Source: an archaeon (GTDB lineage: Archaea > Nanobdellota > Nanobdellia > Pacearchaeales > GW2011-AR1). Taken from it: a DNA stretch of 64,000 bases. Below are positions 1 through 48,777 of the stretch, piece after piece (position 1 is the stretch's first letter; every line of letters starts with the position of its first letter). A model generated the notes under the pieces. It searched no databases, had not been told where the DNA came from, and saw only the letters and a program-made list of their open reading frames with translations. A program made the translations under genes and the position numbers. The stretch is from positions 24,791 through 88,790 of the forward strand of contig DAOVXQ010000001.1 in assembly GCA_030636025.1 (NCBI GenBank). Direction: 5' to 3'.

Positions 1-1150
1 CATAATTATTCCTTTTTTTATTTTTTCCCATGTTTTTCTTTCAATCATACAGGCATTTGAAAAAATTTCAGTGCACACATTTATTTTTAATATCTTCCAA
101 AATTTTATAAAACTTATTTCACTTTTTTTATTAATCTTAATTGGGGTTAAAACAAATGCAATAATTTTTTCATTTTTACTAGGAATCCTTTCAATGTTTA
201 TTATTTCTTATTTATATTGTAAATATAAATTGCCTCAAATTTTTGGAAAACCCAAATTAAGAAAATCTGAAAAAAGAAAAACCATAAAAAACCTTATATC
301 ATATTCCTGGCCAATTATGTTTCTTGCATTTTTTCTTAATATTTTTAATTTAATAGACTCTTTTTCAATAGGTTATTTTAAGGGAGTATTAGAGGTGGGT
401 TTTTATAATGCCGCCGTGCCCATAGCCACATTATTATCATTAACCAGAACTATTTTTTTGCAGCTTTTTTTCCCTTTAATGACAAAAATGTATGCTTTAA
501 AAAATATGTCTGTAATTAATAGCATAAGTAAACAGGTTGCAAAATGGGTTTTAATTATCAATCTCCCAATATTTGCTCTTTTTTTTATTTTCCCAGGAGT
601 TTTTATCAACTTTTTATTTGGAGCAGAATATCTTGTTGCAGAAAATGCTTTAAGATTTCTTTCAATTAGTGCATTACTTTCTTCAGTATTTATTGTTTCA
701 AATCAACTTTTGTCTATTGCAGGCAAATCTAAACTCATTTTATTAGACATCATAATCGCCTCAGTATTAAATATAATTTTAAATGCAATTCTTGTTCCAA
801 TGCCAAAAATATTTTTTATAGATAATGCATTTGGTATAACTGGCGCAGCAATAGCCACAATGATTTCAACAATTGTATTTAGTTTTCTTTTTTTATTCCA
901 AGCAAAACATTATCTTTCAATAATTCCATTAAAAAGAAAGATGATTAGAATTTTTTTCATAGCAGCAATTTTAGCAATTTTAATAGTTTTTATTAAGCAA
1001 TTTATTATAATTAATTTATTAACTATGACTTTGTTAGGTATATTCTTTTTTTTAGCTTATTTATTATTAATATTTACAACAGGATGTTTAGATGAAAATG
1101 ATTTAATGATTTTGAAATCGATTAAAAATAAATTTACTAAAAATAAATAA
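1..1150 (+). CDS. Polysaccharide-biosynthesis/oligosaccharide flippase (Wzx/MOP-superfamily-like), 5'-partial. The frame stays open back to window position 2.
   Basis: Polytopic hydrophobic protein whose composition is typical of Wzx/MurJ-like exporters. It sits at the edge of the glycan island. The track start at 71 is a GTG and the reading frame is open upstream to the window start. Confidence 0.55.
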   Translation, partial: IIIPFFIFSHVFLSIIQAFEKISVHTFIFNIFQNFIKLISLFLLILIGVKTNAIIFSFLLGILSMFIISYLYCKYKLPQIFGKPKLRKSEKRKTIKNLISYSWPIMFLAFFLNIFNLIDSFSIGYFKGVLEVGFYNAAVPIATLLSLTRTIFLQLFFPLMTKMYALKNMSVINSISKQVAKWVLIINLPIFALFFIFPGVFINFLFGAEYLVAENALRFLSISALLSSVFIVSNQLLSIAGKSKLILLDIIIASVLNIILNAILVPMPKIFFIDNAFGITGAAIATMISTIVFSFLFLFQAKHYLSIIPLKRKMIRIFFIAAILAILIVFIKQFIIINLLTMTLLGIFFFLAYLLLIFTTGCLDENDLMILKSIKNKFTKNK

Positions 1151-1152
1151 TT

Positions 1153-2532
1153 TTATTTTATTATTTTTCCTTTCATATCTTTGGGAATTGGAACATCTAA
1201 TGCATTTAAAATAGTCGGAGCAACATCCAAAATATCAATTTCTCCAAGGTTTCCTTTTTGATTAGATTTATTCATTATAAAAATTCCTTGTTTTGAATGT
1301 GTGGCATCATCACTTCCAATAGCAGTTTGAGGCGACCAGAGAGAAGGATTTCCAATTAAAGAAGTATTAACCCCGTATTCTAAATCATCAAAATAAATAA
1401 CAATATCTGGGGCAATATTCTGGTATTTTCCTTGAAAATCATTTTTTTTGATAAAAAATTTAGTATTGAGGGTTTCTCCTCTATCTCCTGTTATTTTTTT
1501 TAATTCTTCTTTTAATCTATTTATTAAATTATCATAATCTTTTAGTTTTACAATTCCTTGTTCTTCTCTTCCTTCTAAATTAATAAAAATTTGCCCCTCA
1601 TAGGCACCAATTGCCCATGCCTTAGTTTTACCCCAATTTATCATATCCATAGTTAATTTGCATTTTTCTTTTAAAGGCTGTTTTAAAACTAAATATCCCT
1701 TATTAATCAACCAATCACTAAGATTAATTCTATTATGCATCCCCATTATTCCATGGTCAGATACAATAATTATTTTTGTATCCTTGTCTAAAAGTTTTAT
1801 TAATTCCCCTAGTTTTTTATCAACAAATTTATAATAATCTTTCATTGTATTTTTAAATTCAGAATTTGGATCATATTTTCTATGTTTTGAGTCTGCATAT
1901 TTTAGAAAGTTATGATTAATCGAATCACTTTGGGCAATTATCCCAAAAAATAAATCCCATTTTTTATTTTTTGATAAATATTCAATTAATTTAAAATGCA
2001 TTTTAGTAATTTTATATGCACTTTTTATTATTTTTTCTTTTGAAATATCTCTAAAATCATTGTCAACGATCATAAAATTTTCAAATAAAGAATTTATTTC
2101 TTGTTTTATTTCTTTTGGATAAGTATAATCTACATTTGTACTTGGAGTTAATGAAAAACCACTAATGCATATACCTTTTTTAAATGGCTTTATTGGCCAC
2201 GCTAGTGGCATAAGACAAGCAACAGGAATTTTATTATTTTCAGAAACAATCTGCCAAATTGTTTTTTCTTTTAAATTTTTTGAAGAAACTATGTTTGGTT
2301 CATAAAAGTAATTTTTTCTATAAACATATTCAAAAATACCTGTATCTTTAGGTTTTTTTCCAGTCATCATAGAACTCCAGGCAACAACAGATAAAGGGGG
2401 AATAGTGCTATTTAATTTTGCATAACCACCTTGTTCCATTAATTTTTTTATATTCGGCAATTCATCGAGCCAGTCATTAAAGATATATCTTGGTTCAGCT
2501 CCATCAATCCCCAAAACAAATACTTTTGACAT
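1153..2532 (-). CDS. Alkaline-phosphatase-superfamily type I phosphodiesterase / nucleotide pyrophosphatase-like protein
   Basis: N-terminal LGIDGAEP...W..MMTG is the metal-ligand motif of the Phosphodiest/AP family. Length is 459 aa. Confidence 0.55.
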   Translation of the reverse strand: MSKVFVLGIDGAEPRYIFNDWLDELPNIKKLMEQGGYAKLNSTIPPLSVVAWSSMMTGKKPKDTGIFEYVYRKNYFYEPNIVSSKNLKEKTIWQIVSENNKIPVACLMPLAWPIKPFKKGICISGFSLTPSTNVDYTYPKEIKQEINSLFENFMIVDNDFRDISKEKIIKSAYKITKMHFKLIEYLSKNKKWDLFFGIIAQSDSINHNFLKYADSKHRKYDPNSEFKNTMKDYYKFVDKKLGELIKLLDKDTKIIIVSDHGIMGMHNRINLSDWLINKGYLVLKQPLKEKCKLTMDMINWGKTKAWAIGAYEGQIFINLEGREEQGIVKLKDYDNLINRLKEELKKITGDRGETLNTKFFIKKNDFQGKYQNIAPDIVIYFDDLEYGVNTSLIGNPSLWSPQTAIGSDDATHSKQGIFIMNKSNQKGNLGEIDILDVAPTILNALDVPIPKDMKGKIIK

Positions 2533-2720
2533 TTTATTTTTTTACATAATATTAGTAAAATCTGCCCCCCATTAAATAATCTCGTTTAAATTATTTATAA
2601 ATCTTTACTAACTTAGGAGTAATCTATATTAAAAAAGAATAAAGTTTAAATAGGATAATCTCTCAAAATAATTTGATAAATAGATTAAATTTATGTAATT
2701 TTAATATAGATATAATAAAA

Positions 2721-4649
2721 ATGAAGAATGCGGTAATCTTGGTAGCGGGATTGGGGAGTAGATTAAAACCCCTTACTCACGAAGTGCCTAAATGCCTTAC
2801 AGAAATAAATGGAAAACCAATATTAAAAAATACCCTAGAACTATTAAGTAAAAAAGGATTTAAAAGGGCAGTGATAGTAATCGGATTTTTGGGAGAAAGA
2901 GTTAGGGAAGCAATAGGAAAAAAATTTAATGAGATGGACATTATTTATCTTGAAAATCCAACATTTATGGAAACAAATTCTATGTATTCTGCATGGTTAG
3001 CCCGAGAATATATTGAAAAAGGGACCCTTTTAATAGAGGGAGACACTATTTTTGAAGAAGAAATTTTAGAAAGAGTTTTAAAAACAGACAAGGATAAATC
3101 TTTTTGGATTGTAGACAAATTCACAGAACAATTTGACGGATGCATGTCTACTGCTGATGAAAATAACAGGATAATAAAAGTTGAGATAGTAAAAGAAAAA
3201 TTAAAAGAATATAAGAATAATTTTTTTAAATCAACTGGAATACTAAAAATAACCAGCGAGTTTGGAAAAGAATTTTCAAATTGGCTCAATGATGATGTTA
3301 AGGCAGGAAATGTAAATATATACTATGACCTTGTTCTTGCAAAACATATTCATGAAAAACCCCTTTATGTCTACAACATAAGTGATTTAAAATGGTTTGA
3401 AATTGATAATTTTCAGGATGTTAGAAAAGCAGAAAATATATTTCAGTCAACAAAATATGTGATGATAATTATGGATGGTTCTGCTGACCTCCCCTTACCA
3501 GAACTAGAAAACAAAACCCCATTTGAAGCAGCAAAAATTCCAAATATAGATTATTTAACTGAAAATGGGAGAACAGGACTATTACAAACAATGTATCCTG
3601 GACTACCTATTTGTAGCATTGTTGCTAATACAGGGTTATTGGGATATAATCCTGCAAGATATTATCCTATTGGAAGGGCCTCTTTTGAAGCATTAGCTCA
3701 AGATATATTCTTAAATCCTAATGATATTGCGTTTAGATGCAATCTGATTTCCACAGAAAATGAAAAAATTAAAGATTTTACAGCAGGAATGATAGATGAT
3801 GAAAGTGCATCCAAGATAATAAATAATCTTAAAATAGATGACAAAAATATTGAGATCTATTCTGGTCAAAGCTATAGGAATTTATTAATTGCAAGAAATG
3901 CTAATTTTTTTGCCAGTGAAATAATTGCCTTTGAACCCCACGAGAACATTAGTGAAGAAATAAAATCAAAATTATTAAAGCATAAGGGGGGAATACACCC
4001 CTCTATTGAGAAACTAAATTCTATAATGTTAGATTCAATAGAACAAATAAAACTATTAAATCAACAATATAATACAAAAGCAGATATGATTTGGCTTTGG
4101 AGCCCATCAATAACACCAAGAATACCTTCTTTTTCAAGACAATATGGGGTAGATGGTGCTATTGTTGCAGGAATGGACTTTATGAACGGCTTGGGGAGAG
4201 CTATGAGGATGGAAGTGAAAAAAATACCCGAAGCTACAGGCGATTTTGATACTAATTTAAAAGAAAAATTAAAATATGCAAAGAATTATTTAAGGTATAA
4301 TGATATTGTGTTTATACATATAAATTCTCCTGATGAAGAATCTCATGCACGTAATGCTGAAAAAAAAGTAAAAGCCATAGAAAATATTGATAGAGAAATC
4401 ATAGGACCTTTATTAGAATTTTTAAATAAAACCTATCCAAATAATTTCAGAATTGCTGCAATGCCAGATCATTATACATTTGTTAAAAATGGAAAACATG
4501 ATGAAAGATCCGTCCCTTATTTTATATGTGGGAAAAATATAAAAAAGAATGATGTTAAAAAATTTACAGAAAAAGAAATTTTTGAAGATAACAAGATAAC
4601 TTTAAAAAGCTATGATTTTATCAATCTTTTGCTAAATGAAGGAATATGA
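2721..4649 (+). CDS. Fusion protein: N-terminal sugar-phosphate nucleotidyltransferase domain plus C-terminal archaeal cofactor-independent phosphoglycerate-mutase-like (ApgM/metalloenzyme) domain
   Basis: The N-terminus MKNAVILVAGLGSRLKPLTHEVPKCL is the GxGxR NTP-transferase motif. The C-terminal ~400 aa align by eye with archaeal iPGM (IIMDGSAD, IAFRCN, ATGDFDTN, IVFIHINSPDEESH, PDHYT). The probable start is the internal ATG at 2721; the track gives 2673. Confidence 0.65.
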   Translation: MKNAVILVAGLGSRLKPLTHEVPKCLTEINGKPILKNTLELLSKKGFKRAVIVIGFLGERVREAIGKKFNEMDIIYLENPTFMETNSMYSAWLAREYIEKGTLLIEGDTIFEEEILERVLKTDKDKSFWIVDKFTEQFDGCMSTADENNRIIKVEIVKEKLKEYKNNFFKSTGILKITSEFGKEFSNWLNDDVKAGNVNIYYDLVLAKHIHEKPLYVYNISDLKWFEIDNFQDVRKAENIFQSTKYVMIIMDGSADLPLPELENKTPFEAAKIPNIDYLTENGRTGLLQTMYPGLPICSIVANTGLLGYNPARYYPIGRASFEALAQDIFLNPNDIAFRCNLISTENEKIKDFTAGMIDDESASKIINNLKIDDKNIEIYSGQSYRNLLIARNANFFASEIIAFEPHENISEEIKSKLLKHKGGIHPSIEKLNSIMLDSIEQIKLLNQQYNTKADMIWLWSPSITPRIPSFSRQYGVDGAIVAGMDFMNGLGRAMRMEVKKIPEATGDFDTNLKEKLKYAKNYLRYNDIVFIHINSPDEESHARNAEKKVKAIENIDREIIGPLLEFLNKTYPNNFRIAAMPDHYTFVKNGKHDERSVPYFICGKNIKKNDVKKFTEKEIFEDNKITLKSYDFINLLLNEGI

Positions 4650-6100
4650 AAACTAAAAAGAAAATTTTGTTAATTAACCCAAGATTAAATGTATCAAAAG
4701 GCTCAATTAGAAGGCTACCAACCCCCCTTGGTTTAATGTATCTTGGAAATGTTTTAGAAAAGGGAGGACATGAAGTTTCAATACTTGATAGTGCTTGTGA
4801 GGGATATAATAATATTACTATAAAAGATGATATTGAAACATATGGATTAAGTGATGAAGAAATAACTAAAAGAATTAGAGAAGAAAATCCAGATTTTGTT
4901 GGTGTAACCTGTCTTTTTTCAAAAATAGAAGAAGAAGTAAAAACTGCCTGTAGAATAGCTAAATCCGTAAATCCAAATATATCAACAGTTATTGGAGGAA
5001 TTCATCCAACATTATTTGCAGAAAAATTAATGAAGGAAAATCCGGAAATAGATTTCATTATTCAAAAAGAAGGTGAAAGTCGCCTTTTAGATTTAGTAAA
5101 TAATTTTCAAGACTATAAATCTATAGATGGTCTTGTTTTTAGAAAAGATGAAAAAGTAATAATAAACCCTCCAACCAGAATTGAAGATATTAATAAACTA
5201 CCTTTGCCTGCAAGACATTTAATAGACATGGAAAAATATATTGATGTGGGATTATTTAGCAACCCCTTTCCTAAAAAAGAGAGGGTTGCACAAGTTTTAG
5301 CATCAAGAGGGTGCATTTATCATTGTGATTTTTGTTCAACTCCAAAGTTTTGGGGAAAATTTAGAAGAAGAGATGCAGAGAATATTCTTGAAGAAATTAT
5401 TCATTTAAAAGATGAATATGGCATACAAGAAATACAATTTAGAGACGATAATCTTACTATAGACAGAGAAAATGCACTTAAACTTTTTAGACTTATGAAG
5501 CCATTAAAAATAGTTTGGTGCTCTGGTGTAATGCTTCAAGCACTTAACGAAAAAATGGTAAAAGCCATGGCAGAATCTGGATGTTATAAATTAACAATCT
5601 CTCCTGAATCAGGTAGTGAAAGGATTTTAAGAGAATTGATGCACAAACCTCTTCAATTAGAGCAAGTTAAACCAAAAGTAGATTTACTACATAAGTATGG
5701 AATAAGTACACATAGTGACTTTATCATAGGATATCCTGGAGAAACAAGAGAAGAAATATACCAAACATTTGAATTTGCTAAAGAAATTCAAACTAATTCT
5801 GCATCTTTTTTTATAGCAGGACCTTGTCCAGGAAGTCCATTATATGAAAGATGTAAAAAAAAGGGATGGTTAGATCAGGGTTGGAGGGGAGATTATAAAT
5901 CCTCAGGAATTCATATAAAAAAAACAGATTCAGAGTATGTTATGTCTGAAAAAGAACTTATAGAATTAACTGAAAAAAATACCCGCGAATTTAATGAATT
6001 AACTAAAAATAATGATCCTCAAGCATGGATAGAAAAATACAAAATTTTCTTAGAAAAACACCCCGAACAAACAGAAAAAATAATGGGAAGAGTTGTTTAA
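4646..6100 (+). CDS. B12-binding-domain radical SAM enzyme (class B, methyltransferase-like)
   Basis: An N-terminal Rossmann-like B12-binding region is followed by ASRGCIYHCDFC (CxxxCxxC). Its ATGA start overlaps the preceding gene, indicating translational coupling. Confidence 0.7.
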   Translation: MKTKKKILLINPRLNVSKGSIRRLPTPLGLMYLGNVLEKGGHEVSILDSACEGYNNITIKDDIETYGLSDEEITKRIREENPDFVGVTCLFSKIEEEVKTACRIAKSVNPNISTVIGGIHPTLFAEKLMKENPEIDFIIQKEGESRLLDLVNNFQDYKSIDGLVFRKDEKVIINPPTRIEDINKLPLPARHLIDMEKYIDVGLFSNPFPKKERVAQVLASRGCIYHCDFCSTPKFWGKFRRRDAENILEEIIHLKDEYGIQEIQFRDDNLTIDRENALKLFRLMKPLKIVWCSGVMLQALNEKMVKAMAESGCYKLTISPESGSERILRELMHKPLQLEQVKPKVDLLHKYGISTHSDFIIGYPGETREEIYQTFEFAKEIQTNSASFFIAGPCPGSPLYERCKKKGWLDQGWRGDYKSSGIHIKKTDSEYVMSEKELIELTEKNTREFNELTKNNDPQAWIEKYKIFLEKHPEQTEKIMGRVV

Positions 6101-6150
6101 ATATAATTTTCCTAGCGAAGATTTATAAATCGTCTCAGATTCTCACTTAA

Positions 6151-7569
6151 ATGGAATCCAAAAAACCAAATATAATTTTTATAATGGCCGACGCAGTTAG
6201 AGCGAGAAACCTTGGTTGTTATGGTTATCATAGAAATACTTCTCCAAATATAGATTCTTTAGCTAAAAAAGGAGTTTTATTTGAAAATGTTTTTTCATCA
6301 AATAATGTAAGTAATAAACAATTTTTATCTATTCTTGGCGGAAAAAGAGTTATAGCAGAGGGACCTTTAATAAATTATGTTAGTAAAAAAGAAATTCAAG
6401 GTTTCTTTGAAACCGGGGGAGTTCTTTTTCCAGAAATGCTCAAAAAACAAGGATATAAAACCTATTTTTTAAAAGACATATATGGTTGGCAAAAAAAAGG
6501 TTTTGATTATTATTTTAAATGTGCATCTAAGGAGGACAAATCAAATGTAAAATGGAGATTAATTAATTTTTCAAAAAAATTTCCCATATTCTATAAAACT
6601 TTAAAATATTCTTTTCACAATTTAGTTTCAAAAAAACTTGCAAATAAGATAAGAGAAAGAAAAGAATCCGAAAAAGTTACAAGAGAAGCTATTGAAATAA
6701 TTAAAAAATCAAAAAAAAATCCTTTTTTTATGTGGCTTTATTATGGAGATACACATTTACCTTATAATGTTCCATCAAAATTTAATAATAAGTTTATTGC
6801 AAATAAAAAAAGTAAAAACTTATTTAAGGAAATATCTAATAAAGGCATGGATAAACGTATTGTAGATTTTCTGAAAGTCTCATTTAGTCGAGGAGATACT
6901 ATTGAAGATGCTATTGCACAATACGATTGTGCCATCGCCTATGTAGATTCATTAGTCAAAAGAGTGGTAAATGCTCTTGAAAAAAAGAATATCCTTGAGA
7001 ATACTATCATTTTTATTTTTGCAGATCATGGGGAAAGCCATGCAGAACATAACATATACTTTAATCATTATGGGCCTTATGGGACGGTATACCAGGTCCC
7101 ATTAATAATTTTCGGAAAAGGAATTCCAAAAAATAAAAGAATAAAAAGCTTTATTCAACACGAAGATCTTGCCCCAACTATTTTTAATATATTAAATATA
7201 AATCATAGTCCAACTCTTTTTGATGGGGGCAGTTTAATTCCCCTTATGAATGGAGAAAAAGAGAAGATTAGAGATCATGCTTTTATGGTAGAAAATTCTT
7301 CTATTAGAAAAAAGATAATCAGAACAAAAAAATATTCTTATATGGAATCTGCTTCAAAAGAAGATGCCACTTGTAAAGTTTGTAATAAAATCCACCAAGG
7401 AGTTATTGAATTATATGATTTGGAAAATGATCCTGGAGAAAATATAAATATTGCTAAAAAAAATAAAAAAGCTTTAATTGAAATGAAATTAAAATTAAAT
7501 AAAACAATTAAAGATTTGAAAAATTTAAATGAGAAAAGAAGAATAAACCAAGTTTTATCAAAGATTTAA
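6151..7569 (+). CDS. Sulfatase-fold (alkaline phosphatase superfamily) protein lacking the C/S-x-P-x-R formylglycine motif; candidate phospho-substituent transferase or hydrolase
   Basis: NIIFIMADAVRARNLGCYG...SPNIDSLAKKGVLFENVF has the sulfatase N-terminal architecture. The position where CxPxR is expected reads FSSNNVSNKQF instead. Confidence 0.5.
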   Translation: MESKKPNIIFIMADAVRARNLGCYGYHRNTSPNIDSLAKKGVLFENVFSSNNVSNKQFLSILGGKRVIAEGPLINYVSKKEIQGFFETGGVLFPEMLKKQGYKTYFLKDIYGWQKKGFDYYFKCASKEDKSNVKWRLINFSKKFPIFYKTLKYSFHNLVSKKLANKIRERKESEKVTREAIEIIKKSKKNPFFMWLYYGDTHLPYNVPSKFNNKFIANKKSKNLFKEISNKGMDKRIVDFLKVSFSRGDTIEDAIAQYDCAIAYVDSLVKRVVNALEKKNILENTIIFIFADHGESHAEHNIYFNHYGPYGTVYQVPLIIFGKGIPKNKRIKSFIQHEDLAPTIFNILNINHSPTLFDGGSLIPLMNGEKEKIRDHAFMVENSSIRKKIIRTKKYSYMESASKEDATCKVCNKIHQGVIELYDLENDPGENINIAKKNKKALIEMKLKLNKTIKDLKNLNEKRRINQVLSKI

Positions 7570-8364: not shown

Positions 8365-8865
8365 TTAATAATTTAATGAGTTATCTTCAGATAAGTTATT
8401 TTCATTAGATTCTGATTCACTTGTTTGATTAAATTCTTTTTCATCTTCCCAAATTCTCCAATCATAACCCATATTTTTACAAGTTTCTGCAGCCAAACAA
8501 TCTAATTTTAAATCTACTCTCTCACCAATTTCTTGGCTTATAACATTTTTAGACATATTCCTAACACCATTTACAGCATGAGTGAATTTTAAAAGCTTAT
8601 CCTGAGAATCCCCTCCCTCTCTTGCCTTTGACTCATTAGCCCAGATAGTCTCATTTGATATTGAATTAACTTGGATTGCCCGTATCATCTGCCCTGTTAA
8701 TCGCACATCTTTTTCTTTAATTATCAAATCAATATCATGCATAATCTCTTGCGCCTCTTTTTCATATTCTTTTTTATGTTCGGGAATTTTAATAGATTTT
8801 AAAGTAACAATGCATAACCTATCTATCAATTCAGCAAATGTTGGCATGTATTTTCTTTCAGACAT
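8365..8865 (-). CDS. Hypothetical protein with an acidic Ser/Glu/Asn-rich C-terminal tail
   Basis: 166 aa with no motif I recognise. It is the last gene of a ten-gene minus-strand operon running to 15597, is the 3'-most gene of the operon and overlaps the gmd-like stop by 8 nt. Confidence 0.35.
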   Translation of the reverse strand: MSERKYMPTFAELIDRLCIVTLKSIKIPEHKKEYEKEAQEIMHDIDLIIKEKDVRLTGQMIRAIQVNSISNETIWANESKAREGGDSQDKLLKFTHAVNGVRNMSKNVISQEIGERVDLKLDCLAAETCKNMGYDWRIWEDEKEFNQTSESESNENNLSEDNSLNY

Positions 8866-9832
8866 TTTCTCTCCACCAGTTTAATAAATCTTGCATGGTT
8901 TGCTCAAAGCTATATTTTGGAACCCATCCTGTTTTGTTTAAGAACTTACTGCAATCAGGTATTTGTAATGTTACATCATAGGGCCGTAATAATTCTGGAT
9001 CTTCTTCTTTTTTTATATCTTTGTCACTTAAGTCAATTAGATGGTCTAACATTTCTCCTATTGTATTTGTTGTATTCCCCCCAATATTATATGCTTCTCC
9101 TGGCTCACATTTTCTAACTAATGAATGATACGCTCCTACTGCATCCCTTACATCTGCCCAAGTTCTTACACTATCGAGATTCCCATGTTTTAAGATTGGT
9201 TCTTGTTTATCTTTTTCTATTAAAGCAATTTGTTTTGCAAAATTACATTCAGCACTCATCATTGTTCTTCTTGGACCTGTATGTGTAAACATTCTTGTCC
9301 TAATTGTTTTTATTTTATAATTTGTCCAATATAAAAGTGCCACCATATCTGCTCCAACTTTCCCTACAGCATATGGATTAGACGGATTAAAAGGACAATC
9401 TTCTTTAATTGGAACTAAATCTTTTGTTACCAGCCCATAAACTTCTGAACTAGAACAGACATGCACTATTGGATCATATCCTGTTTTTTCCTTAGTCATC
9501 CTGACTGCCTCCAATAATCGTAAGGTTCCTATCGTATTTGTTTGAATTGTAATATCTGGATTTGAATAAGAATCCCCAACATAACTTTGTGCGGCTAAAT
9601 GAAAAATATAATCAGGCCTATGTTTATCAATTACTCTTAAACAAGCAGACTGGTCTAACAAATCCATAGGAACCATCTTTATTTTTCCGTCTAAGTGTTT
9701 AATTCTATTCAAATCTTCTGTCCACCTATATGTTCCTATAACTTCCTCTTCTTTTTTAACTAACAAATCCTCTAAATGACTTGCGACAAAACCTCCTGCA
9801 CCTGTAATTAAATTAGTTACCATTTTTTTCAT
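8858..9832 (-). CDS. gmd: GDP-mannose 4,6-dehydratase family (Gmd/Rmd-like) NDP-sugar dehydratase
   Basis: Rossmann motif TGAGGFVASHL. Extended SDR blocks TIGTLRLLEAVR, SSSEVYG, NPYAVGK, HTGPRR and GNLDSVRTWADVRD match Gmd (GTLRLLEA, STSELYG, SPYAVAK, HESPRRG, GNMDSLRDWGHAKD). Confidence 0.55.
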   Translation of the reverse strand: MKKMVTNLITGAGGFVASHLEDLLVKKEEEVIGTYRWTEDLNRIKHLDGKIKMVPMDLLDQSACLRVIDKHRPDYIFHLAAQSYVGDSYSNPDITIQTNTIGTLRLLEAVRMTKEKTGYDPIVHVCSSSEVYGLVTKDLVPIKEDCPFNPSNPYAVGKVGADMVALLYWTNYKIKTIRTRMFTHTGPRRTMMSAECNFAKQIALIEKDKQEPILKHGNLDSVRTWADVRDAVGAYHSLVRKCEPGEAYNIGGNTTNTIGEMLDHLIDLSDKDIKKEEDPELLRPYDVTLQIPDCSKFLNKTGWVPKYSFEQTMQDLLNWWRENV

Positions 9833-10214
9833 AAAAATTTATTAAAGTTTCTAAATCAACATTATTTATTTTAATATCATTTAGTTCGGTTTTATCTATT
9901 AGGGCAAATCCTGCCCCTTCTTTTAATGATATTTTTGAAATATCATTAATACTCGCAGTATATATTTTTATGTTTCCTTTATATTTATCTCCTAAATTAT
10001 AATTCTTAGAACCATAAAATTTTGGATTTATTGTTATTCCTGTTTCTTCAAAAATCTCTCTAACAACTGCTTCTTTAGGTTTTTCATTATTTTCTATTTC
10101 TCCTCCAAAAATTCCCCACGCTCCCCGAGTTGAGGGATAATCTAATGTTTTCTTCTGCAAAAGAACCTCATTTCTATCATTCAATATTATACATTCCACC
10201 ACATTTCTATCCAT
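9813..10214 (-). CDS. NUDIX hydrolase (GDP-sugar hydrolase Gmm/WcaH-like by context)
   Basis: Nudix box GGEIENNEKPKEAVVREIFEETGI. It is adjacent to and co-oriented with the gmd-like gene. Confidence 0.65.
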   Translation of the reverse strand: MDRNVVECIILNDRNEVLLQKKTLDYPSTRGAWGIFGGEIENNEKPKEAVVREIFEETGITINPKFYGSKNYNLGDKYKGNIKIYTASINDISKISLKEGAGFALIDKTELNDIKINNVDLETLINFYEKNGN

Positions 10215-10584
10215 TTATCACATACTCCTTATCATTTACTTCTTTTGAAATATAAGGCCATTGTGTGCATTCTATCATCACAGTATCTTCTAAAAATTTT
10301 GCCTTATGTGCAATTCTTGGCTCAATAGTTATCCTCTGACCTTTTTTTAAATTTATTTCCTGCCTTTCCTTTGTATCAATATTTTCAAAAATATATTCTG
10401 CTTCCCCATGTAATAAATAAAAAGTTTCACTATAATTGTGATAATGATTTCCAAGTATAGAACCCTCTTTTATTTTAAGTAATTTTAATTGCAAGGCAGT
10501 AAAATCCCCATTAAAAATAGGTGTCAGACTTCTTCTTTCATCTTCATGTGCTGGTTCAATTTCTTTATAATCTAATCCTTTCAT
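10207..10584 (-). CDS. Cupin-domain protein (possible NDP-keto-sugar epimerase/isomerase)
   Basis: HYHNYSETFYLLHGEA...H is a cupin two-His motif. 125 aa, lying inside the sugar operon. Confidence 0.45.
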   Translation of the reverse strand: MKGLDYKEIEPAHEDERRSLTPIFNGDFTALQLKLLKIKEGSILGNHYHNYSETFYLLHGEAEYIFENIDTKERQEINLKKGQRITIEPRIAHKAKFLEDTVMIECTQWPYISKEVNDKEYVING

Positions 10585-11138
10585 TTTAATTCTGCATATT
10601 TTTCTATTTGTGCTTTTGTTCCTCCTGTAGGCACTTCAACTAAAATTGTAGACTTATCATTATACAATGCATTTTTGTAAACAGGGATAACGTCCTCTGC
10701 CTTTCTTATTTTAATAACCTCTATGTTTTTACATATGATTTCTAAGGCATTTGTATAATCTGAACAATGTTGAATTCCAGGATATAATGGTTTTGTGTTT
10801 CCTATCTGAGTTCTCATAATCACCTTGGGATTATATTCCCCATGGCTCATTTCTTTAATTTTATCTAGGTGGTTTACTAATTGATTCATCCCACATATTA
10901 AAAAATCTATTCTTGGATAAATACTTATTGGAATATATCCCTTTAAACTTAGTCCTATTGAAATCCCCATCTGCATATCCTCTGCCACAGGCATTTCTAT
11001 TTTCTTTTCTAAAGGAACATTTTCAAGACTCATATGCATTGGACTGCCAGGATACAAAACTGTCTGACCCATAAAAATTGTTCTTTTATCTTCTGCAAGA
11101 ATTTCCATTGCTTTTTTTGTTTGTTTTTTATAATCCAT
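10581..11138 (-). CDS. Truncated TPP-enzyme E1-beta-like subunit (transketolase-like pyrimidine-binding domain only)
   Basis: MGQTVLYPGSP...PVAEDMQMGISIGLSLKGYIPI resembles E1-beta/transketolase PF02779. At 185 aa it is far shorter than canonical E1-beta (~325 aa). Confidence 0.55.
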   Translation of the reverse strand: MDYKKQTKKAMEILAEDKRTIFMGQTVLYPGSPMHMSLENVPLEKKIEMPVAEDMQMGISIGLSLKGYIPISIYPRIDFLICGMNQLVNHLDKIKEMSHGEYNPKVIMRTQIGNTKPLYPGIQHCSDYTNALEIICKNIEVIKIRKAEDVIPVYKNALYNDKSTILVEVPTGGTKAQIEKYAELK

Positions 11139-11139
11139 T

Positions 11140-11748
11140 TTAAAAATCCACCCATTTACCTATTCCATAATGGGGATATCTCCTCTCATATTCATATTTT
11201 ATTATATCTGCCCTTCCATTTTTCCAGACCTCATTTGTAGGAGTATAAACTCCAATTCCATTATCTTCGACTACAAAAGTTATTGGTAAATCTTGCCCCC
11301 CTGCATATTGCGTACATTCACTAAATGCTCCCATCTTTGAAGCCATATCTCCAACAAAACACCAAACATGCTCTCCCGAATTTTTTTGCCTTATTCCCAT
11401 TGCAGTTCCAACTGCGATAGGCAGAATCCCCCCAACAATTGCTGATGAAAATATTTTGTATTGATTGCTATTTGCATGTATGCTCCTATCTTCTAAAATT
11501 TCATTTTTTAACCACTCCGGATTTTTGCTTTTTAATAAAGCATGATAATGGCTTCTCCATGTCGAAAAAACCCAATCTTCATCTTTTACATTTTTAAAAA
11601 TTTCAATTAATTGGTCTTCATTTCCACCAGAAAGATGAATCGGACTATGTATTTTTCCAGCCTCATATAAATCCACTATTTCTTTTTCAAAATTCATCAA
11701 ATATTCTTTATCTATACTAACTTTTTCAATTAAATCTTGTTTATCCAT
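11140..11748 (-). CDS. Truncated TPP-binding E1-alpha-like subunit
   Basis: HLSGGNE, the SIHANS region (compare GGSMH) and CFVGDMASKMGAFSE...VVEDNGIG (the GDG...N TPP-binding motif). 202 aa against ~330 aa for canonical E1-alpha. Confidence 0.6.
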   Translation of the reverse strand: MDKQDLIEKVSIDKEYLMNFEKEIVDLYEAGKIHSPIHLSGGNEDQLIEIFKNVKDEDWVFSTWRSHYHALLKSKNPEWLKNEILEDRSIHANSNQYKIFSSAIVGGILPIAVGTAMGIRQKNSGEHVWCFVGDMASKMGAFSECTQYAGGQDLPITFVVEDNGIGVYTPTNEVWKNGRADIIKYEYERRYPHYGIGKWVDF

Positions 11749-11757
11749 TTTTATTAA

Positions 11758-12714
11758 TTATTTTATATTTTTTTGATACCAATTCATTGTTTTTCTTATT
11801 CCTTCTTCTAAACTAACTTTGGGTGTCCATCCAAAATCATTTTTAGCTTTAGTGCAATCAAAACATAAACTCGTTTTTATTGTCGGTTTTGAAGTATCAT
11901 ATTCTATATTAATATTCTTGCCTGAAATGTCAATCATTTTTTTAACAAGATTACTAACAGAAACAGCTTCTCCAGAACCAACATTATATAACTCATAACC
12001 TGTTTGTTGATCATCTACAGCCATACTAACAAAATCAACTAAGTCATCAATATACAAAAAATCTCTTTTTTCTTTTCCATCTCCCCAAACAACTAATTTT
12101 TCATTTTTATTATTCATAACTTTAGTAATTGTTGCTCCAAAAACATGAGATTTTTCTAAGTCAAATTTATCATAAGGCCCATAAACATTTGCCTGCCTTA
12201 TTACAGTATGTTTGGTTTTTCCTAATCTTGAAAAAAATTCACACATCTTTTCAATATAAATTTTAGTATGTCCAACCCCAAAATAATTTGGAAGAAGTTC
12301 CTGGTTGGGATTAAAATCAGTCTCCTTTAAAGGTTTTTCACTTGGTTGATACATCACAGTAGAACTTGGAAAAATAAAATGTTCAACATTATTATCAAAT
12401 GCAGACCTTAATAATAATGAGTTCATTACCGCATTATCTGTTACATGGATATAAGGTTTTGTAACAATATCTTTTGAACCAGAAGTTGTAGAAGCATCTT
12501 GGATAATTATATTTTTTCCAGCAACAATCCCTTGAACATCTTTAGAATCAAGAAGATTTGCATGAACCATCTCAACATTATCTATTTTTGGAGGTTTAGA
12601 TTTAAAATAAGTCCCAGTAACTTCAAAATTTTCTCTTTTTCCAAATCTTTCTGCAACATTTCTGCCAATAAATCCTGTTGCACCACAAACTAAAACCTTT
12701 TTTTTACTATTCAT
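11758..12714 (-). CDS. NAD-dependent epimerase/dehydratase (GDP-fucose-synthase/UDP-Glc-4-epimerase-like SDR)
   Basis: VLVCGATGFIGRNV Rossmann motif; extended SDR, 318 aa. Confidence 0.65.
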   Translation of the reverse strand: MNSKKKVLVCGATGFIGRNVAERFGKRENFEVTGTYFKSKPPKIDNVEMVHANLLDSKDVQGIVAGKNIIIQDASTTSGSKDIVTKPYIHVTDNAVMNSLLLRSAFDNNVEHFIFPSSTVMYQPSEKPLKETDFNPNQELLPNYFGVGHTKIYIEKMCEFFSRLGKTKHTVIRQANVYGPYDKFDLEKSHVFGATITKVMNNKNEKLVVWGDGKEKRDFLYIDDLVDFVSMAVDDQQTGYELYNVGSGEAVSVSNLVKKMIDISGKNINIEYDTSKPTIKTSLCFDCTKAKNDFGWTPKVSLEEGIRKTMNWYQKNIK

Positions 12715-19465: not shown

Positions 19466-19466
19466 T

Positions 19467-20522: not shown

Positions 20523-20620
20523 TTTTAATTAGTTTATAATAAATTTTTCTAACTTACCTTTTTTTATATAAGCACCATAAGCAAATGATTTAAAAAGATT
20601 ATGAAATTAAGATACATGTT

Positions 20621-22241: not shown

Positions 22242-22251
22242 TTTTATATTT

Positions 22252-44308: not shown

Positions 44309-44350
44309 TTTTATTTATCGAGATTTAACTTTTTAAAACCAATGAAGAAA

Positions 44351-44818: not shown

Positions 44819-44819
44819 A

Positions 44820-48776: not shown

Positions 48777-48777
48777 T

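What the first reader, a model, noticed from the sequence alone, without database searches (positions are those of the whole stretch)
2721..6100. Nucleotidyltransferase fused to an archaeal iPGM-like phosphomutase and translationally coupled to a B12-radical-SAM enzyme
One polypeptide combines a sugar-1-phosphate nucleotidyltransferase domain with a complete archaeal-type cofactor-independent phosphoglycerate mutase-like (alkaline phosphatase superfamily) domain. Its stop overlaps the start of a cobalamin-binding radical SAM enzyme through an ATGA junction. I am not aware of this fusion as a characterised enzyme. Two readings are possible. It could be a bifunctional phosphosugar mutase/nucleotidyltransferase making the NDP-hexose substrate for the island (iPGM relatives include phosphopentomutase). 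Alternatively it could activate a phospho-acid such as 2- or 3-phosphoglycerate as a CMP/CDP conjugate that is then C-methylated by the B12 radical SAM. The second reading is architecturally reminiscent of Fom1 (cytidylyltransferase fused to PEP mutase) followed by Fom3 in fosfomycin biosynthesis, although no PEP mutase is present here.
Basis: partly seen in the sequence, partly recalled or inferred. Interest (0 to 1): 0.65.

Follow-up and report, generated by a model that had tools for sequence, protein, structure and literature searches.

The report
Fused enzyme making a CDP-activated glycan decoration
An archaeal gene fuses a cytidylyltransferase to a relative of phosphoglycerate mutase and sits directly before a vitamin-B12 radical SAM methylase; this widespread, uncharacterised cassette most likely builds a CDP-activated, methylated small phosphate head group that is then attached to a surface glycan.

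Summary
Window 2721-4649 is one uninterrupted 642-aa ORF. It has an N-terminal LicC/PntC-type cytidylyltransferase domain and a C-terminal archaeal apgM-type (alkaline-phosphatase superfamily) domain with all metal ligands and the Ser nucleophile intact. Its stop overlaps the start of a B12-binding radical SAM gene (ATGA, 4646-4649).

The fusion is found in more than 100 protein clusters from many bacterial and archaeal phyla. It also occurs as two adjacent genes, including in cultured Clostridium fallax.

The conserved cassette has four parts: the cytidylyltransferase (NT), the apgM-like enzyme, a methylase, and a CDP-alcohol-type phosphotransferase. The methylase is usually a SAM enzyme resembling phosphoethanolamine N-methyltransferases, and in anaerobes a B12 radical SAM.

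The apgM-like domain is not a canonical phosphoglycerate mutase. It lacks the mutases' conserved arginine cluster and groups with HomK homoserine phosphotransferases, though it is not one of them.

The closest relatives of the radical SAM sit beside, or are fused to, cytidylyltransferases in 2-aminoethylphosphonate clusters.

My best reading is a Lic/Fta/Fom-like pathway: make a small phosphomonoester (probably amine-bearing), cytidylylate it, C-methylate the CDP conjugate, and transfer it to a glycan. The Fom1/Fom3-like logic is supported. Phosphoglycerate as substrate is doubtful, and the phosphosugar reading is rejected. This is a new variant of a known kind, and the substrate is unproven.

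The parts
2721..3446 (+). N-terminal LicC/PntC-type (COG1213-like) cytidylyltransferase domain of the fusion (aa 1-242). It carries the G10-x-G12-x-R14 ... K24 signature.
   Evidence: Pfam PF00483/PF12804. PDB phmmer: LicC 1jyk 1.6e-19, PntC 6pd1 3.2e-15. Family profile: LicC 2.1e-34 and PntC 8.3e-27 over the full length, against 2e-17 or weaker, N-terminal only, for sugar-1-P NTs. Foldseek: LicC TM 0.87-0.89.
3453..4649 (+). C-terminal apgM-superfamily (alkaline-phosphatase fold) domain (aa 245-642). Ser299 nucleophile (nt 3615-3617); metal ligands D252, D538, H542, D583, H584, H593. HomK-like rather than mutase-like pocket: F353, T354, Y385, W460, N535, E539/E540.
   Evidence: Pfam PF10143/PF01676. 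NCBIfam scores. PDB 2zkt 1.9e-38. Foldseek TM 0.82-0.86. Residue comparison with the solved mutases and with HomK members.
4646..4649 (+). ATGA overlap between the fusion's stop codon and the radical SAM start codon.
   Evidence: Direct reading of the sequence. The same 4-nt overlap is computed in L020, with gaps of 1 nt in L006 and 17 nt in L003.
4646..6100 (+). B12-binding (class B) radical SAM enzyme, 484 aa. The CxxxCxxC motif is at C223-C230 (nt 5312-5335). Proposed C-methyltransferase acting on the cytidylylated product.
   Evidence: Pfam PF02310 plus PF04055. Best NCBIfam match is the Sden_1168 family at 342 bits, below its cutoff of 575. Relatives are fused to NT domains or lie in AEP clusters.
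6151..7569 (+). Soluble sulfatase-fold (alkaline-phosphatase superfamily) protein, 472 aa, lacking the formylglycine motif (S-N-K-Q-F in place of C/S-x-P-x-R). Candidate phosphotransferase or phosphodiesterase for the head group.
   Evidence: Pfam PF00884 3.5e-49. Motif read from the sequence; no TM helix. Sulfatase-fold genes also follow the cassette in L014 and L017.
1153..2532 (-). Divergently transcribed type I phosphodiesterase / nucleotide pyrophosphatase-family protein, 459 aa. Possible accessory enzyme; its role is not established.
   Evidence: Pfam PF01663 2.8e-42. A homologue lies 5 genes upstream of the fusion in the Methanosarcinales locus L020.
2533..2720 (.). AT-rich divergent intergenic region upstream of the fusion (presumed promoter region). 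It contains TTTATAAA at about 2594-2601.
   Evidence: Direct reading of the sequence. Function not tested.
1..1150 (+). Wzx/MATE-like polysaccharide flippase, cut by the window edge. It places the cassette in a glycan island.
   Evidence: Pfam Polysacc_synt and Polysacc_synt_3. The full 519-aa gene is seen in L001.

Best explanation
The three co-directional genes 2721-7569 are the archaeal, anaerobic version of a widespread four-function cassette. The cassette makes a CDP-activated small phosphate head group and puts it on a surface glycan.

Step 1 (inferred). The C-terminal apgM-like domain uses its two-metal site and Ser299 (a phospho-enzyme intermediate) to make a dedicated small phosphomonoester. 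It is probably a phosphotransferase onto a small hydroxy-amine or hydroxy-amino acid (ethanolamine-, serine- or threonine-like), as in its nearest characterised relatives, the HomK homoserine phosphotransferases. It is probably not a 3-PG/2-PG mutase.

Step 2 (strongly supported by homology). The fused LicC/PntC-like domain condenses that phosphomonoester with CTP to give CDP-X plus PPi. Fusion would channel a scarce intermediate.

Step 3 (inferred). The overlapping B12 radical SAM enzyme methylates a carbon of the cytidylylated intermediate, as Fom3 does with CMP-hydroxyethylphosphonate. In aerobic or bacterial cassettes this step is replaced by a SAM methyltransferase resembling phosphoethanolamine N-methyltransferases.

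Step 4 (inferred). A phosphotransferase moves P-X(Me) from CDP onto the glycan. In sister loci this is a CDP-alcohol phosphatidyltransferase or a TagF-like enzyme. In the window the only candidate is the sulfatase-fold protein that lacks the formylglycine motif.

Overall the pathway parallels LicA/C/D (phosphocholine) and especially FtaABCD of C. difficile (CDP-threonine, then CDP-N-methylthreonine, then the glycan). The FtaA-type HAD phosphotransferase is replaced here by an apgM-type enzyme.
For: Conservation of the architecture:
- The fusion is conserved in more than 100 clusters.
- In 33 non-redundant genome loci it occurs fused (14), as adjacent NT and apgM genes (14), or with the NT gene not called (5).

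Partner genes in those loci (annotated):
- Directly downstream is a methylase: a 268-aa SAM MTase in 18 loci, a B12 radical SAM in 4 loci (plus one nearby), or a racemase-MTase fusion in 3 loci.
- Next comes CDP-OH_P_transf, a TagF-like Glyphos_transf, or a sulfatase-fold gene.

NT domain: LicC/PntC-like over its full length.

apgM-like domain:
- Catalytic residues are invariant.
- The DRRAGR arginines, R460 and H385 of the solved archaeal mutases are replaced by F/T, W and Y, as in HomK.
- NCBIfam: HomK model 345 bits and PRK04200 356 bits, against 241 bits for the Pyrococcus-type mutase model.
- Its nearest stand-alone relatives at 31-36% identity are true TIGR02535 members.
- HomK function and its specificity residue come from bioRxiv 10.1101/2024.10.14.618325.

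Amine-type partners in sister cassettes:
- The SAM MTase's best solved relatives are phosphoethanolamine N-methyltransferases, at 5e-24 against 6e-13 for the next hit.
- The racemase resembles cysteate and aspartate racemases.
- A GNAT or a FemAB protein occupies the same position in two loci.

Radical SAM acting on a cytidylylated substrate:
- NT-rSAM fusions P0169, P0195 and P0198 exist.
- The NT-rSAM fusion in L088 lies beside an AEP aminotransferase. The relative in L090 (49% identical) lies in a PepM/Ppd/PhnW/NT/LicD/CDP-OH cluster.
- The relative in L089 (55% identical) lies beside an HxGH-type cytidylyltransferase.
- An NT-SAM MTase fusion, P0259, also exists.

Glycan context: flippase, NDP-sugar enzymes and AglB/STT3 in the window.
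Against: - No enzyme of this cassette has been assayed, and the identity of X is not determined.
- The window itself has none of the amine-tailoring partners. That inference comes from sister cassettes and from the AEP context of the radical SAM relatives.
- At the published PGM/HomK specificity position the cassette has Asn. This is neither the Lys of the mutases nor the Glu of HomK, so it does not positively indicate an amine substrate.
- The domain passes the TIGR00306 subfamily cutoff.
- A LicC-like cytidylyltransferase that uses 2-phosphoglycerate now exists (CpgD), so LicC-likeness does not exclude glycerate.
- The similarity of the SAM MTase to phosphoethanolamine methyltransferases covers only the N-terminal SAM-binding half.
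- No canonical CDP-alcohol or TagF-type transferase was found in the parts of the window that were scanned (1-24.4 kb and selected ORFs). The transferase role of the sulfatase-fold protein is a guess.
- B12 radical SAM enzymes are not all methylases.
Confidence: 0.55

Rival explanations
1. A true bifunctional phosphoglycerate mutase / CTP:2-phosphoglycerate cytidylyltransferase. The apgM domain converts abundant 3-PG to scarce 2-PG. The NT domain makes CDP-2-glycerate, as CpgD does. The B12 radical SAM C-methylates the glycerate moiety before it is transferred to the glycan.
For: - The fold, all metal ligands and the Ser nucleophile of iPGM are kept.
- The domain passes the TIGR00306 cutoff.
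- It has an invariant Lys516 and Lys549, shared with the mutases.
- CpgD is a LicC-like enzyme that prefers D-2-PG, and its authors suggest a dedicated phosphoglycerate-supplying enzyme might exist.
- Fusion would make sense for channelling a low-abundance isomer.
Against: - The cassette family has lost R353, R354, R357, R460 and H385. At the Lys specificity position it has Asn535. All of these are conserved in the two solved archaeal mutases.
- It scores below every mutase equivalog cutoff, and 100 bits higher on the HomK-clade models than on the Pyrococcus-type mutase model.
- TIGR00306-positive proteins have been shown to be homoserine phosphotransferases.
- Hosts such as Clostridium and Bacteroidota presumably already make 2-PG in glycolysis (general knowledge, not tested here).
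- An amino-acid racemase, a GNAT, a FemAB protein and a phosphoethanolamine-MTase-like partner do not fit glycerate.
Confidence: 0.2
2. PhpF/PhpG-like order of reactions. The NT domain first makes a CMP/CDP-activated phosph(on)ate. The apgM-like domain then uses that nucleotide conjugate as donor, via Ser299, to transfer the phosphoryl group onto an acceptor. This is what PhpG is annotated as doing with CMP-5'-phosphonoformate and phosphoglycerate in phosphinothricin biosynthesis.
For: - PhpG is an apgM homologue, and the window domain matches its model (150 bits).
- The domain order NT then apgM matches this reaction order.
- The best-matching radical SAM family carries a phosphonate-pathway name.
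Against: - The PhpG score is far below its cutoff of 545, and lower than the 217-256 bits HomK members give.
- No enolase or CPEP mutase homologue was recognised among the cassette-associated families annotated. No PEP mutase motif is present in the 88 loci held at that point.
- Most cassettes carry a separate CDP-alcohol-type transferase. That implies the CDP conjugate survives to the last step.
- NT-rSAM and NT-MTase fusions imply that tailoring happens on the nucleotide conjugate.
Confidence: 0.08
3. A polyol-phosphate mutase, for example glycerol-1/3-phosphate to glycerol-2-phosphate, feeding a CDP-2-glycerol-type head group for a teichoic-acid-like polymer.
For: - Loss of the carboxylate-binding arginines would fit a neutral polyol.
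- TagF-like CDP-glycerol glycerophosphotransferase homologues and ABC-2 exporters accompany many cassettes.
- From my own knowledge, CDP-2-glycerol is a known capsule precursor.
Against: This reading does not explain the obligatory methylase, the amino-acid racemase, the GNAT or FemAB partners, or the AEP context of the radical SAM relatives. No precedent for such a mutase was found.
Confidence: 0.07
4. A bifunctional phosphosugar mutase / sugar-1-phosphate nucleotidyltransferase supplying the NDP-hexose for the island.
For: The cassette is embedded in an NDP-sugar modification island. The alkaline-phosphatase superfamily includes phosphopentomutase (general knowledge).
Against: - The NT profile matches LicC and PntC over its full length at 1e-34 and 1e-27. 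Sugar-1-P enzymes match only the N-terminal nucleotide-binding part, at 2e-17 or weaker.
- The apgM cap domain (PF10143) is the small-acid-binding type, not the DeoB type.
- The partner transferases are CDP-alcohol phosphotransferases, not glycosyltransferases.
Confidence: 0.03

Closest known systems
FtaABCD of Clostridioides difficile (CDP-threonine / CDP-N-methylthreonine pathway for the Type A flagellin glycan; bioRxiv 10.64898/2026.02.12.704994, PMC10714395)
   Same: The four functions come in the same order: a non-kinase phosphotransferase related to an alternative homoserine kinase, a LicC-like cytidylyltransferase, a methylase acting on the CDP conjugate, and a TagF-like phosphotransferase onto a glycan. 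Sister cassettes of the window have exactly these last three types.
   Different: The first enzyme here has the apgM (alkaline-phosphatase) fold, not the ThrH-like HAD fold, and it is fused to the NT. The window uses a B12 radical SAM instead of a small SAM N-methyltransferase. The window has no TagF-like gene. The substrate is unknown. The setting is an archaeal glycan island, not a flagellar locus.
Fom1 / Fom3 of fosfomycin biosynthesis (cytidylyltransferase-PEP mutase fusion; B12 radical SAM methylating CMP-2-hydroxyethylphosphonate)
   Same: A cytidylyltransferase is fused to the enzyme that makes the small P-compound, followed by a class B radical SAM that is proposed to methylate the cytidylylated intermediate. 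A 49%-identical relative of the window's radical SAM lies in a locus with PEP mutase (annotated with CTP_transf_like), Ppd and AEP transaminase.
   Different: There is no PEP mutase motif in the window, nor in the 87 loci fetched by then, which include all 33 cassette loci. The product is therefore a phosphate ester, not a phosphonate. The NT here is LicC/PntC-type, not the HxGH type. Homology to Fom3 itself was not tested.
HomK / TIGR02535 (apgM-like homoserine phosphotransferase, BT2402; bioRxiv 10.1101/2024.10.14.618325)
   Same: This is the closest characterised relative of the C-terminal domain. It has the same catalytic Ser and metal ligands. It shows the same replacement of the mutase Arg cluster, His385 and Arg460 by F/Y, T/S, Y and W.
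   Different: The window domain scores 345.5 bits, below the cutoff of 446.3. It has Asn, not Glu, at the specificity position. It has cassette-specific residues I300, S321, S463, F487 and E540. It is never seen next to hom or thrC in the loci examined, and is always with an NT and a methylase.
Archaeal cofactor-independent phosphoglycerate mutase (ApgM; PDB 2zkt, 3kd8)
   Same: Same fold (TM 0.82-0.86), same two-metal site and same Ser nucleophile.
   Different: Only 23-25% identity. The DRRAGR arginines, R460, H385 and the Lys at position 535 are lost. It scores below the PRK04024, PRK04135 and PRK04200 cutoffs.
LicC / PntC / CpgD small-molecule cytidylyltransferases (COG1213)
   Same: Full-length sequence and fold match to LicC and PntC. 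These enzymes activate phosphocholine, 2-aminoethylphosphonate and 2-phosphoglycerate respectively.
   Different: Only about 23% identity to LicC. It is fused to an apgM-like domain. Substrate specificity is unknown. No CpgD chain appeared among the matches to the PDB copies searched, so no direct comparison could be made.

Membership tests
Cofactor-independent phosphoglycerate mutase, archaeal ApgM type | Alkaline-phosphatase core plus PhosphMutase cap fold | tested here: met
   PF01676 and PF10143. AF2 model against 2zkt gives TM 0.82-0.86.
Cofactor-independent phosphoglycerate mutase, archaeal ApgM type | Ser nucleophile and the six metal ligands | tested here: met
   D252, S299, D538, H542, D583, H584 and H593 are invariant.
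Cofactor-independent phosphoglycerate mutase, archaeal ApgM type | Basic substrate pocket: the DRRAGR arginines, R460, H385 and the Lys three residues before the D-x3-H motif (the PGM state of the published specificity position) | tested here: not met
   The window has F353, T354, M357, W460, Y385 and N535. Cassette conservation at these positions is 93-100%, except 357, which is variable. The Lys/Glu rule is from bioRxiv 10.1101/2024.10.14.618325. My mapping of it to column 535 rests on the K (PGM) versus E (HomK) pattern.
Cofactor-independent phosphoglycerate mutase, archaeal ApgM type | Score above curated equivalog cutoffs | tested here: not met
   PRK04200 355.7 against 426; PRK04024 241 against 489; PRK04135 162 against 468. 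Only the broad subfamily model TIGR00306 passes, at 359.5 against 320.
Cofactor-independent phosphoglycerate mutase, archaeal ApgM type | Catalyses 3-PG <-> 2-PG | not testable with these tools
   Needs an enzyme assay.
HomK homoserine phosphotransferase (TIGR02535) | Score above 446.3 bits | tested here: not met
   345.5 bits. Of nine HomK-clade proteins scanned, eight score 464-545 and one 441.
HomK homoserine phosphotransferase (TIGR02535) | Glu at the BT2402 E299 position | tested here: not met
   Asn535 in 59 of 59 cassette sequences, against Glu in 8 of 8 HomK members.
HomK homoserine phosphotransferase (TIGR02535) | Non-mutase pocket (aromatic or neutral residues in place of the mutase Arg and His) | tested here: met
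   Y385 and W460 are identical to HomK. F353 and T354 correspond to Y and S in HomK.
LicC/PntC-type small-molecule cytidylyltransferase | Full-length homology and fold, with the G-x-G-x-R ... K signature | tested here: met
   Profile against LicC 2.1e-34 (positions 4-242) and PntC 8.3e-27 (1-240). Foldseek TM 0.87-0.89. G10, G12, R14 and K24 are invariant in the 29 fusions and read from the sequence.
LicC/PntC-type small-molecule cytidylyltransferase | CTP specificity and identity of the phospho-substrate | not testable with these tools
   Needs an assay.
Class B (cobalamin-binding) radical SAM methyltransferase | N-terminal B12-binding domain plus a radical SAM core with CxxxCxxC | tested here: met
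   PF02310 (aa 25-150) and PF04055 (aa 220-378). C223-x3-C227-x2-C230.
Class B (cobalamin-binding) radical SAM methyltransferase | Membership of the NCBIfam Sden_1168 'P-methyltransferase' equivalog | tested here: not met
   342.4 bits against a cutoff of 575. The relative in the AEP cluster (L090) also fails, at 393.7 bits.
Class B (cobalamin-binding) radical SAM methyltransferase | Methyl transfer, and the atom methylated | not testable with these tools
   Needs anaerobic reconstitution.
Fom1/Fom3-type phosphonate pathway | PEP mutase present | tested here: not met
   No EDKxxxxxNS motif in six-frame translations of the window and the 87 loci fetched by then. The motif is recalled from my own knowledge. 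No PEP_mutase Pfam hit among the window ORFs scanned.
FtaABCD-type CDP-amino-acid glycan modification | LicC-like NT, plus a methylase acting on the CDP conjugate, plus a TagF-like or CDP-alcohol transferase | tested here: inconclusive
   Sister cassettes have all three. The window has the NT and a (radical SAM) methylase but no recognisable TagF or CDP-OH transferase. Homology to FtaA-D was not testable.
Sulfatase (for ORF 6151-7569) | C/S-x-P-x-R formylglycine motif | tested here: not met
   S-N-K-Q-F at the aligned position, by manual comparison with the sulfatase consensus recalled from my own knowledge (sequence). The fold match is PF00884 3.5e-49.

The most novel reading that the evidence does not exclude
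The cassette defines a third functional class of the apgM superfamily, neither phosphoglycerate mutase nor HomK. Fused to a cytidylyltransferase, it produces a so-far undescribed CDP-linked metabolite, a CDP-amino-alcohol or CDP-amino-acid. The window's B12 radical SAM then C-methylates a CDP-linked phosphate ester, for example CDP-ethanolamine to a CDP-aminopropanol, or CDP-serine to a CDP-threonine-like product. That would be the phosphate-ester counterpart of Fom3 chemistry, and would give a new phosphodiester-linked decoration on archaeal and bacterial surface glycans.
Probability: 0.35. Interest if true: 0.75.

Novelty: new variant of a known kind. Interest (0 to 1): 0.6.

Why it matters
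Every database name seen for these proteins calls them 2,3-bisphosphoglycerate-independent phosphoglycerate mutase, although they lack the mutase substrate pocket. Correcting that affects metabolic reconstructions of many uncultured archaea and bacteria, because a glycolytic step would be credited wrongly.

The cassette would add a second, non-homologous route to CDP-activated small head groups, alongside the very recently described CDP-threonine pathway. It would also extend the apgM superfamily beyond the mutase and HomK functions.

It links a family of B12 radical SAM enzymes to cytidylylated substrates in both phosphonate and non-phosphonate contexts. NCBIfam currently labels that family 'P-methyltransferase' (NF038361).

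The hypothesis is directly testable, because a cultured organism, Clostridium fallax DSM 2631, carries the split form.

Tried and rejected
1. Frameshift or assembly artefact: rejected.

2. Loss of catalytic residues: rejected.

3. Hidden phosphonate pathway.
- The split TPP-enzyme pairs at 10581-11748 and 21093-22241 first looked like a possible phosphonopyruvate decarboxylase.
- They are E1_dh/Transket_pyr-type, with neighbours typical of NDP-sugar chemistry.
- No PEP mutase motif exists in the window or in the 87 loci held at that point.

4. Literature searches found nothing for Sden_116x locus tags, for phosphoglycerate mutase plus cytidylyltransferase combinations, or for a PepM-independent methylphosphonate route.

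5. Mapping the HomK specificity residue from the numbering printed in the preprint failed.
- The listed metal-ligand numbers are not mutually consistent with any alignment I could make.
- I resolved it by fetching true TIGR02535 members and finding the single column that is K in the solved mutases and E in all HomK members.
- The mapping is therefore an inference.

6. The distant apgM-like genes in loci L045-L087 were tested as possible HomK references. None reached the cutoff.

7. P-methylation, as the NCBIfam name suggests, was considered. I think it unlikely, because neither a phosphate ester nor AEP has a P-H bond (chemical reasoning, not a test).

8. CpgD could not be compared directly. 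No CpgD chain appeared among the matches to the PDB copies searched.

9. FtaA-D sequences were not obtainable, so the Fta comparison is at the level of family and function only.

Full report
**1. The observation**

The ORF list shows one reading frame from 2673/2721 to 4649 on the + strand, followed by an ORF at 4646-6100. Full-length homologues align from residue 1 of the ATG-2721 product, so 2721 is the likely start. The product is 642 aa with no internal stop.

Pfam places NTP_transferase at aa 4-173. The PhosphMutase cap lies at aa 281-442, inside a Metalloenzyme (alkaline-phosphatase superfamily) core at aa 245-621. The next protein has B12-binding and Radical_SAM domains and a CxxxCxxC motif at C223-C230.

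The junction reads GGA ATA TGA, with the ATG at 4646-4648 and the TGA at 4647-4649. The ATGA overlap is therefore real.

The identical protein is on record from NCBI, ENA and Logan assemblies, and two contigs were read. More than 100 clusters of homologues at 47-60% identity have the same two-domain architecture. An AlphaFold2 model built on 29 of them is confident as one two-domain body (pLDDT 93.1, pTM 0.86). A frameshift artefact is excluded.

D252, S299, D538, H542, D583, H584 and H593 are invariant, so the catalytic machinery is not lost.

The organism is an archaeon. The window carries the r-proteins L32e, S4e and L5e and an STT3/AglB oligosaccharyltransferase. RNA polymerase subunit N lies just upstream on the contig. 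GC content is about 29%.

**2. What surrounds it**

The genes around the fusion form a glycan island:
- a Wzx-like flippase, a nucleotide-pyrophosphatase-family protein and a sulfatase-fold protein;
- NDP-sugar dehydratases and epimerases, NUDIX proteins, a cupin, two split E1-like TPP enzyme pairs, several further radical SAM proteins and glycosyltransferases.

There is no PEP mutase. None of the scanned ORFs hits PEP_mutase. The PepM signature EDKxxxxxNS (recalled from my own knowledge) is absent from all six frames of the window and of the 87 loci held at that point.

**3. The family and its conserved neighbours**

A scan of one genome per GTDB species returned 79 loci. After removing duplicates, 33 carry a close relative (at least 35% identity) of the apgM-like domain:
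- 14 are fused;
- 14 have the NT and the apgM-like protein as adjacent, often overlapping genes, including cultured Clostridium fallax DSM 2631;
- 5 have the apgM-like gene with no NT gene called beside it (at least one at a contig edge or with an uncalled start).

The NT plus apgM-like pair is therefore the conserved unit, and fusion is one of its forms.

The gene directly downstream is nearly always a methylase:
- a 268-aa class I SAM methyltransferase in 18 loci;
- a B12 radical SAM in 4 loci, with a fifth nearby. These are the window, an Elusimicrobia MAG, a metagenome contig, a Methanosarcinales MAG, and nearby in an Aenigmatarchaeota MAG;
- an Asp/Glu-racemase-methyltransferase fusion in 3 loci.

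A separate 235-aa racemase follows in 9 loci. In single loci a GNAT or a FemAB protein takes the +1 position.

Next comes a phosphotransferase:
- CDP-OH_P_transf in 11 loci;
- TagF-like Glyphos_transf in 9 loci, sometimes fused to a second methyltransferase;
- a sulfatase-fold protein in the window, L014 and L017.

ABC-2 exporter genes flank the Bacteroidota versions.

A CDP-alcohol-dependent transferase at the end of the cassette implies that the intermediate stays CDP-linked until the last step.

**4. The NT domain**

The window domain alone hits LicC (CTP:phosphocholine cytidylyltransferase, 1.6e-19) and PntC (the phosphonate-specific cytidylyltransferase for 2-aminoethylphosphonate, 3.2e-15) best.

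A profile of 21 cassette NT domains hits LicC at 2.1e-34 and PntC at 8.3e-27 over the whole length. Sugar-1-phosphate nucleotidyltransferases reach at best 2e-17, and only over the N-terminal nucleotide-binding part. Foldseek agrees (LicC TM 0.87-0.89).

This rejects the phosphosugar reading. It places the enzyme among small-molecule cytidylyltransferases.

That class now also includes CpgD, which makes CDP-glycerate from 2-phosphoglycerate (PMC12275187). It also includes FtaB of the CDP-threonine pathway. LicC-likeness therefore does not by itself identify the substrate.

**5. The apgM-like domain is not a canonical mutase**

NCBIfam scores:

| Model | Score (bits) | Cutoff |
|---|---|---|
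| TIGR00306 (broad subfamily) | 359.5 | 320 |
| PRK04200 | 355.7 | 426 |
| TIGR02535 'proposed homoserine kinase' | 345.5 | 446.3 |
| PRK04024 (Pyrococcus-type mutase) | 241 | 489 |
| PhpG | 150 | 545 |

The domain passes only the broad subfamily model.

A whole-library search shows that the nearest stand-alone relatives at 31-36% identity are genuine TIGR02535 members. That family has been shown by genetics and complementation to be a homoserine phosphotransferase, HomK. A TIGR00306-classified member, DET_RS08350, also complements thrB. The phosphate donor is unknown (bioRxiv 10.1101/2024.10.14.618325).

I aligned 59 cassette sequences, 8 HomK members and the two solved mutases 2zkt and 3kd8 (sequences rebuilt).

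| Window position | Solved mutases | Cassette | HomK |
|---|---|---|---|
| 353 | R (DRRAGR) | F | Y |
| 354 | R (DRRAGR) | T | S |
| 357 | R (DRRAGR) | variable | H |
| 385 | H | Y | Y |
| 460 | R | W | W |
| 535 | K | N (59/59) | E (8/8) |

Column 535 is the only column that is Lys in both solved mutases and Glu in all HomK members. I take it to be the published specificity position (BT2402 E299).

The cassette also has its own invariant or near-invariant residues: I300 after the nucleophile, S321, S463, F487 and E540.

So the domain keeps the phosphoryl-transfer chemistry but has a pocket unlike that of the mutases. It is a sister of HomK, not a member. The GapMind authors also predict threonine-phosphate-forming members next to cobD. 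The superfamily therefore already contains amino-acid phosphotransferases.

**6. Hints to the head group**

- The 268-aa SAM methyltransferase's best solved relatives are plant and nematode phosphoethanolamine N-methyltransferases (5e-24, against 6e-13 for the next family). Only the N-terminal half aligns.
- The racemase scores 170-186 bits on the cysteate racemase model (cutoff 190). It passes the amino-acid racemase subfamily model. It is closest to solved aspartate racemases.
- The GNAT gives weak hits to phosphinothricin and arsinothricin N-acetyltransferases.

Together these suggest a head group with an amino group and, in some lineages, an alpha-carboxylate with an anionic side chain. 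That is a phospho-amino-alcohol or an O-phospho-amino acid.

This matches the FtaABCD pathway of C. difficile:
- a ThrH-like phosphotransferase is proposed to make phosphothreonine;
- FtaB makes CDP-threonine;
- FtaC N-methylates it;
- the TagF-like FtaD transfers it to GlcNAc on flagellin.

Both FtaA and the present domain are relatives of alternative, non-ATP homoserine 'kinases' (ThrH and HomK respectively).

**7. The radical SAM enzyme**

Its best NCBIfam model is the 'Sden_1168 family B12-binding radical SAM P-methyltransferase' (342 bits, below the cutoff of 575).

Among its 120 best homologues, three are fused to an NTP_transferase domain: P0169, P0195 and P0198.

- The P0169 gene lies next to a bona fide 2-aminoethylphosphonate aminotransferase (424 bits against a cutoff of 361).
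- A 49%-identical homologue (L090) lies in an archaeal cluster with PEP mutase (its precomputed Pfam entry also lists a CTP_transf_like domain). The cluster also holds phosphonopyruvate decarboxylase (431 against 312), an AEP aminotransferase (446 against 361), two LicC-like NTs, LicD and a CDP-OH transferase.
- A 55%-identical homologue (L089) follows a protein with the HxGH cytidylyltransferase motif and what I read as a ParB-like N-terminus.

An NT-SAM methyltransferase fusion, P0259, also exists.

The repeated fusion or adjacency of this radical SAM family with three different kinds of cytidylyltransferase is the strongest evidence that it works on a cytidylylated small molecule. This is the logic known from Fom3 (established knowledge).

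In the AEP clusters the likely substrate is CMP-AEP. In the window the nearest phosphate-ester analogue would be a CDP-amino-alcohol.

The 'P-methyltransferase' name looks doubtful for these contexts, because neither AEP nor a phosphate ester has a P-H bond (chemical reasoning).

**8. Proposed mechanism and its status**

- Shown by sequence or structure prediction: the two-domain fusion, an intact phosphoryl-transfer site, a LicC/PntC-type NT, a class B radical SAM with an overlapping start, and the conserved cassette with CDP-alcohol-type transferases in sister loci.
- Inferred: (i) the apgM-like domain supplies a dedicated phosphomonoester by phosphotransfer; (ii) the NT makes CDP-X; (iii) the radical SAM C-methylates CDP-X; (iv) a transferase installs P-X(Me) on a glycan. 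In the window the transferase might be the soluble sulfatase-fold protein. It has S-N-K-Q-F where sulfatases have C/S-x-P-x-R, and it has no TM helix.

The identity of X is open. I rank the possibilities in this order:
1. amine-bearing head groups;
2. 2-phosphoglycerate (the CpgD-like rival);
3. a PhpF/PhpG-like order of reactions;
4. a polyol phosphate;
5. phosphosugars.

**9. Novelty**

No paper in the searchable library describes this fusion or cassette. Where database names exist, they all say phosphoglycerate mutase.

The logic is known from the Lic, Fta and Fom pathways. The new elements are:
- an apgM-superfamily enzyme as the first step, and its fusion to the NT;
- the N535-type pocket as a third class in that superfamily;
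- a B12 radical SAM in a PepM-free, phosphate-ester context.

I therefore file it as a new variant of a known kind, of moderate to high interest, with a clear experimental path through the cultured Clostridium fallax.

Noticed in passing
window 10581-11748 and 21093-22241 (- strand), with neighbours 8858-14186 and 18554-23376: There are two separate pairs of short E1_dh-like and Transket_pyr-like genes (split TPP enzymes). They sit among NDP-sugar dehydratases and epimerases, NUDIX proteins, a cupin, a second B12 radical SAM (12711-14186) and three SPASM or plain radical SAM genes. This looks like machinery for branched-chain or C-methylated deoxysugars in an archaeal glycan island. The Elusimicrobia locus L003 has the same combination next to its cassette.
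   Followed up: partly
window 36896-39694 (-) and about 44300-57450 (-): An STT3/AglB oligosaccharyltransferase (932 aa) and an archaeal ribosomal protein operon (L3, S3, S4e, S8, L32e, L5e/L18, L30, L15). These show that the window is archaeal and that the island lies near the N-glycosylation enzyme.
   Followed up: partly
window 6151-7569 (+): A sulfatase-fold protein has Ser in place of the formylglycine Cys, and lacks the Pro and Arg of the C/S-x-P-x-R motif. It is therefore unlikely to be a sulfatase. Similar genes follow the cassette in L014 and L017.
   Followed up: partly
L088 250-2481; L090 8001-9482; proteins P0169, P0195, P0198: Relatives of the window's B12 radical SAM are fused to a LicC-like NT domain. 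Two of the loci looked at (L088, L090) are genuine 2-aminoethylphosphonate clusters (PepM, Ppd, PhnW-AepZ). They imply an undescribed radical SAM modification of cytidylylated AEP. The NCBIfam label 'P-methyltransferase' for the nearest family may be a misnomer.
   Followed up: partly
L089 5758-9482: The closest relative of the radical SAM (55% identity) follows three genes. They are a HAD hydrolase, a 208-aa protein that I read as possibly LicD-like, and a 328-aa protein that combines what I read as a ParB-like N-terminus with an HxGH cytidylyltransferase motif. The same contig stretch also encodes DNA polymerase A, ribonucleotide reductase and PrkA. The nature of this replicon was not examined.
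   Followed up: no
proteins P0348, P0362, P0379, P0386 (974-1101 aa): These are apgM-like domains at the N-terminus of very long proteins. The C-terminal 600-700 residues have no Pfam match.
   Followed up: no
protein P0259 (472 aa): A cassette-type NT domain (50% identical to the window's) is fused to a class I SAM methyltransferase. This is another fusion linking cytidylylation and methylation.
   Followed up: no
bioRxiv 10.1101/2024.10.14.618325, Appendix 3: The metal-ligand residue numbers printed for BT2402 (D274, H278, H325, D346, H347) cannot all be reconciled with the order of the motifs in eight TIGR02535 members (D298, H302, D341, H342, H351 in P0306 numbering). The position of E299 had to be inferred from the K/E pattern.
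   Followed up: partly
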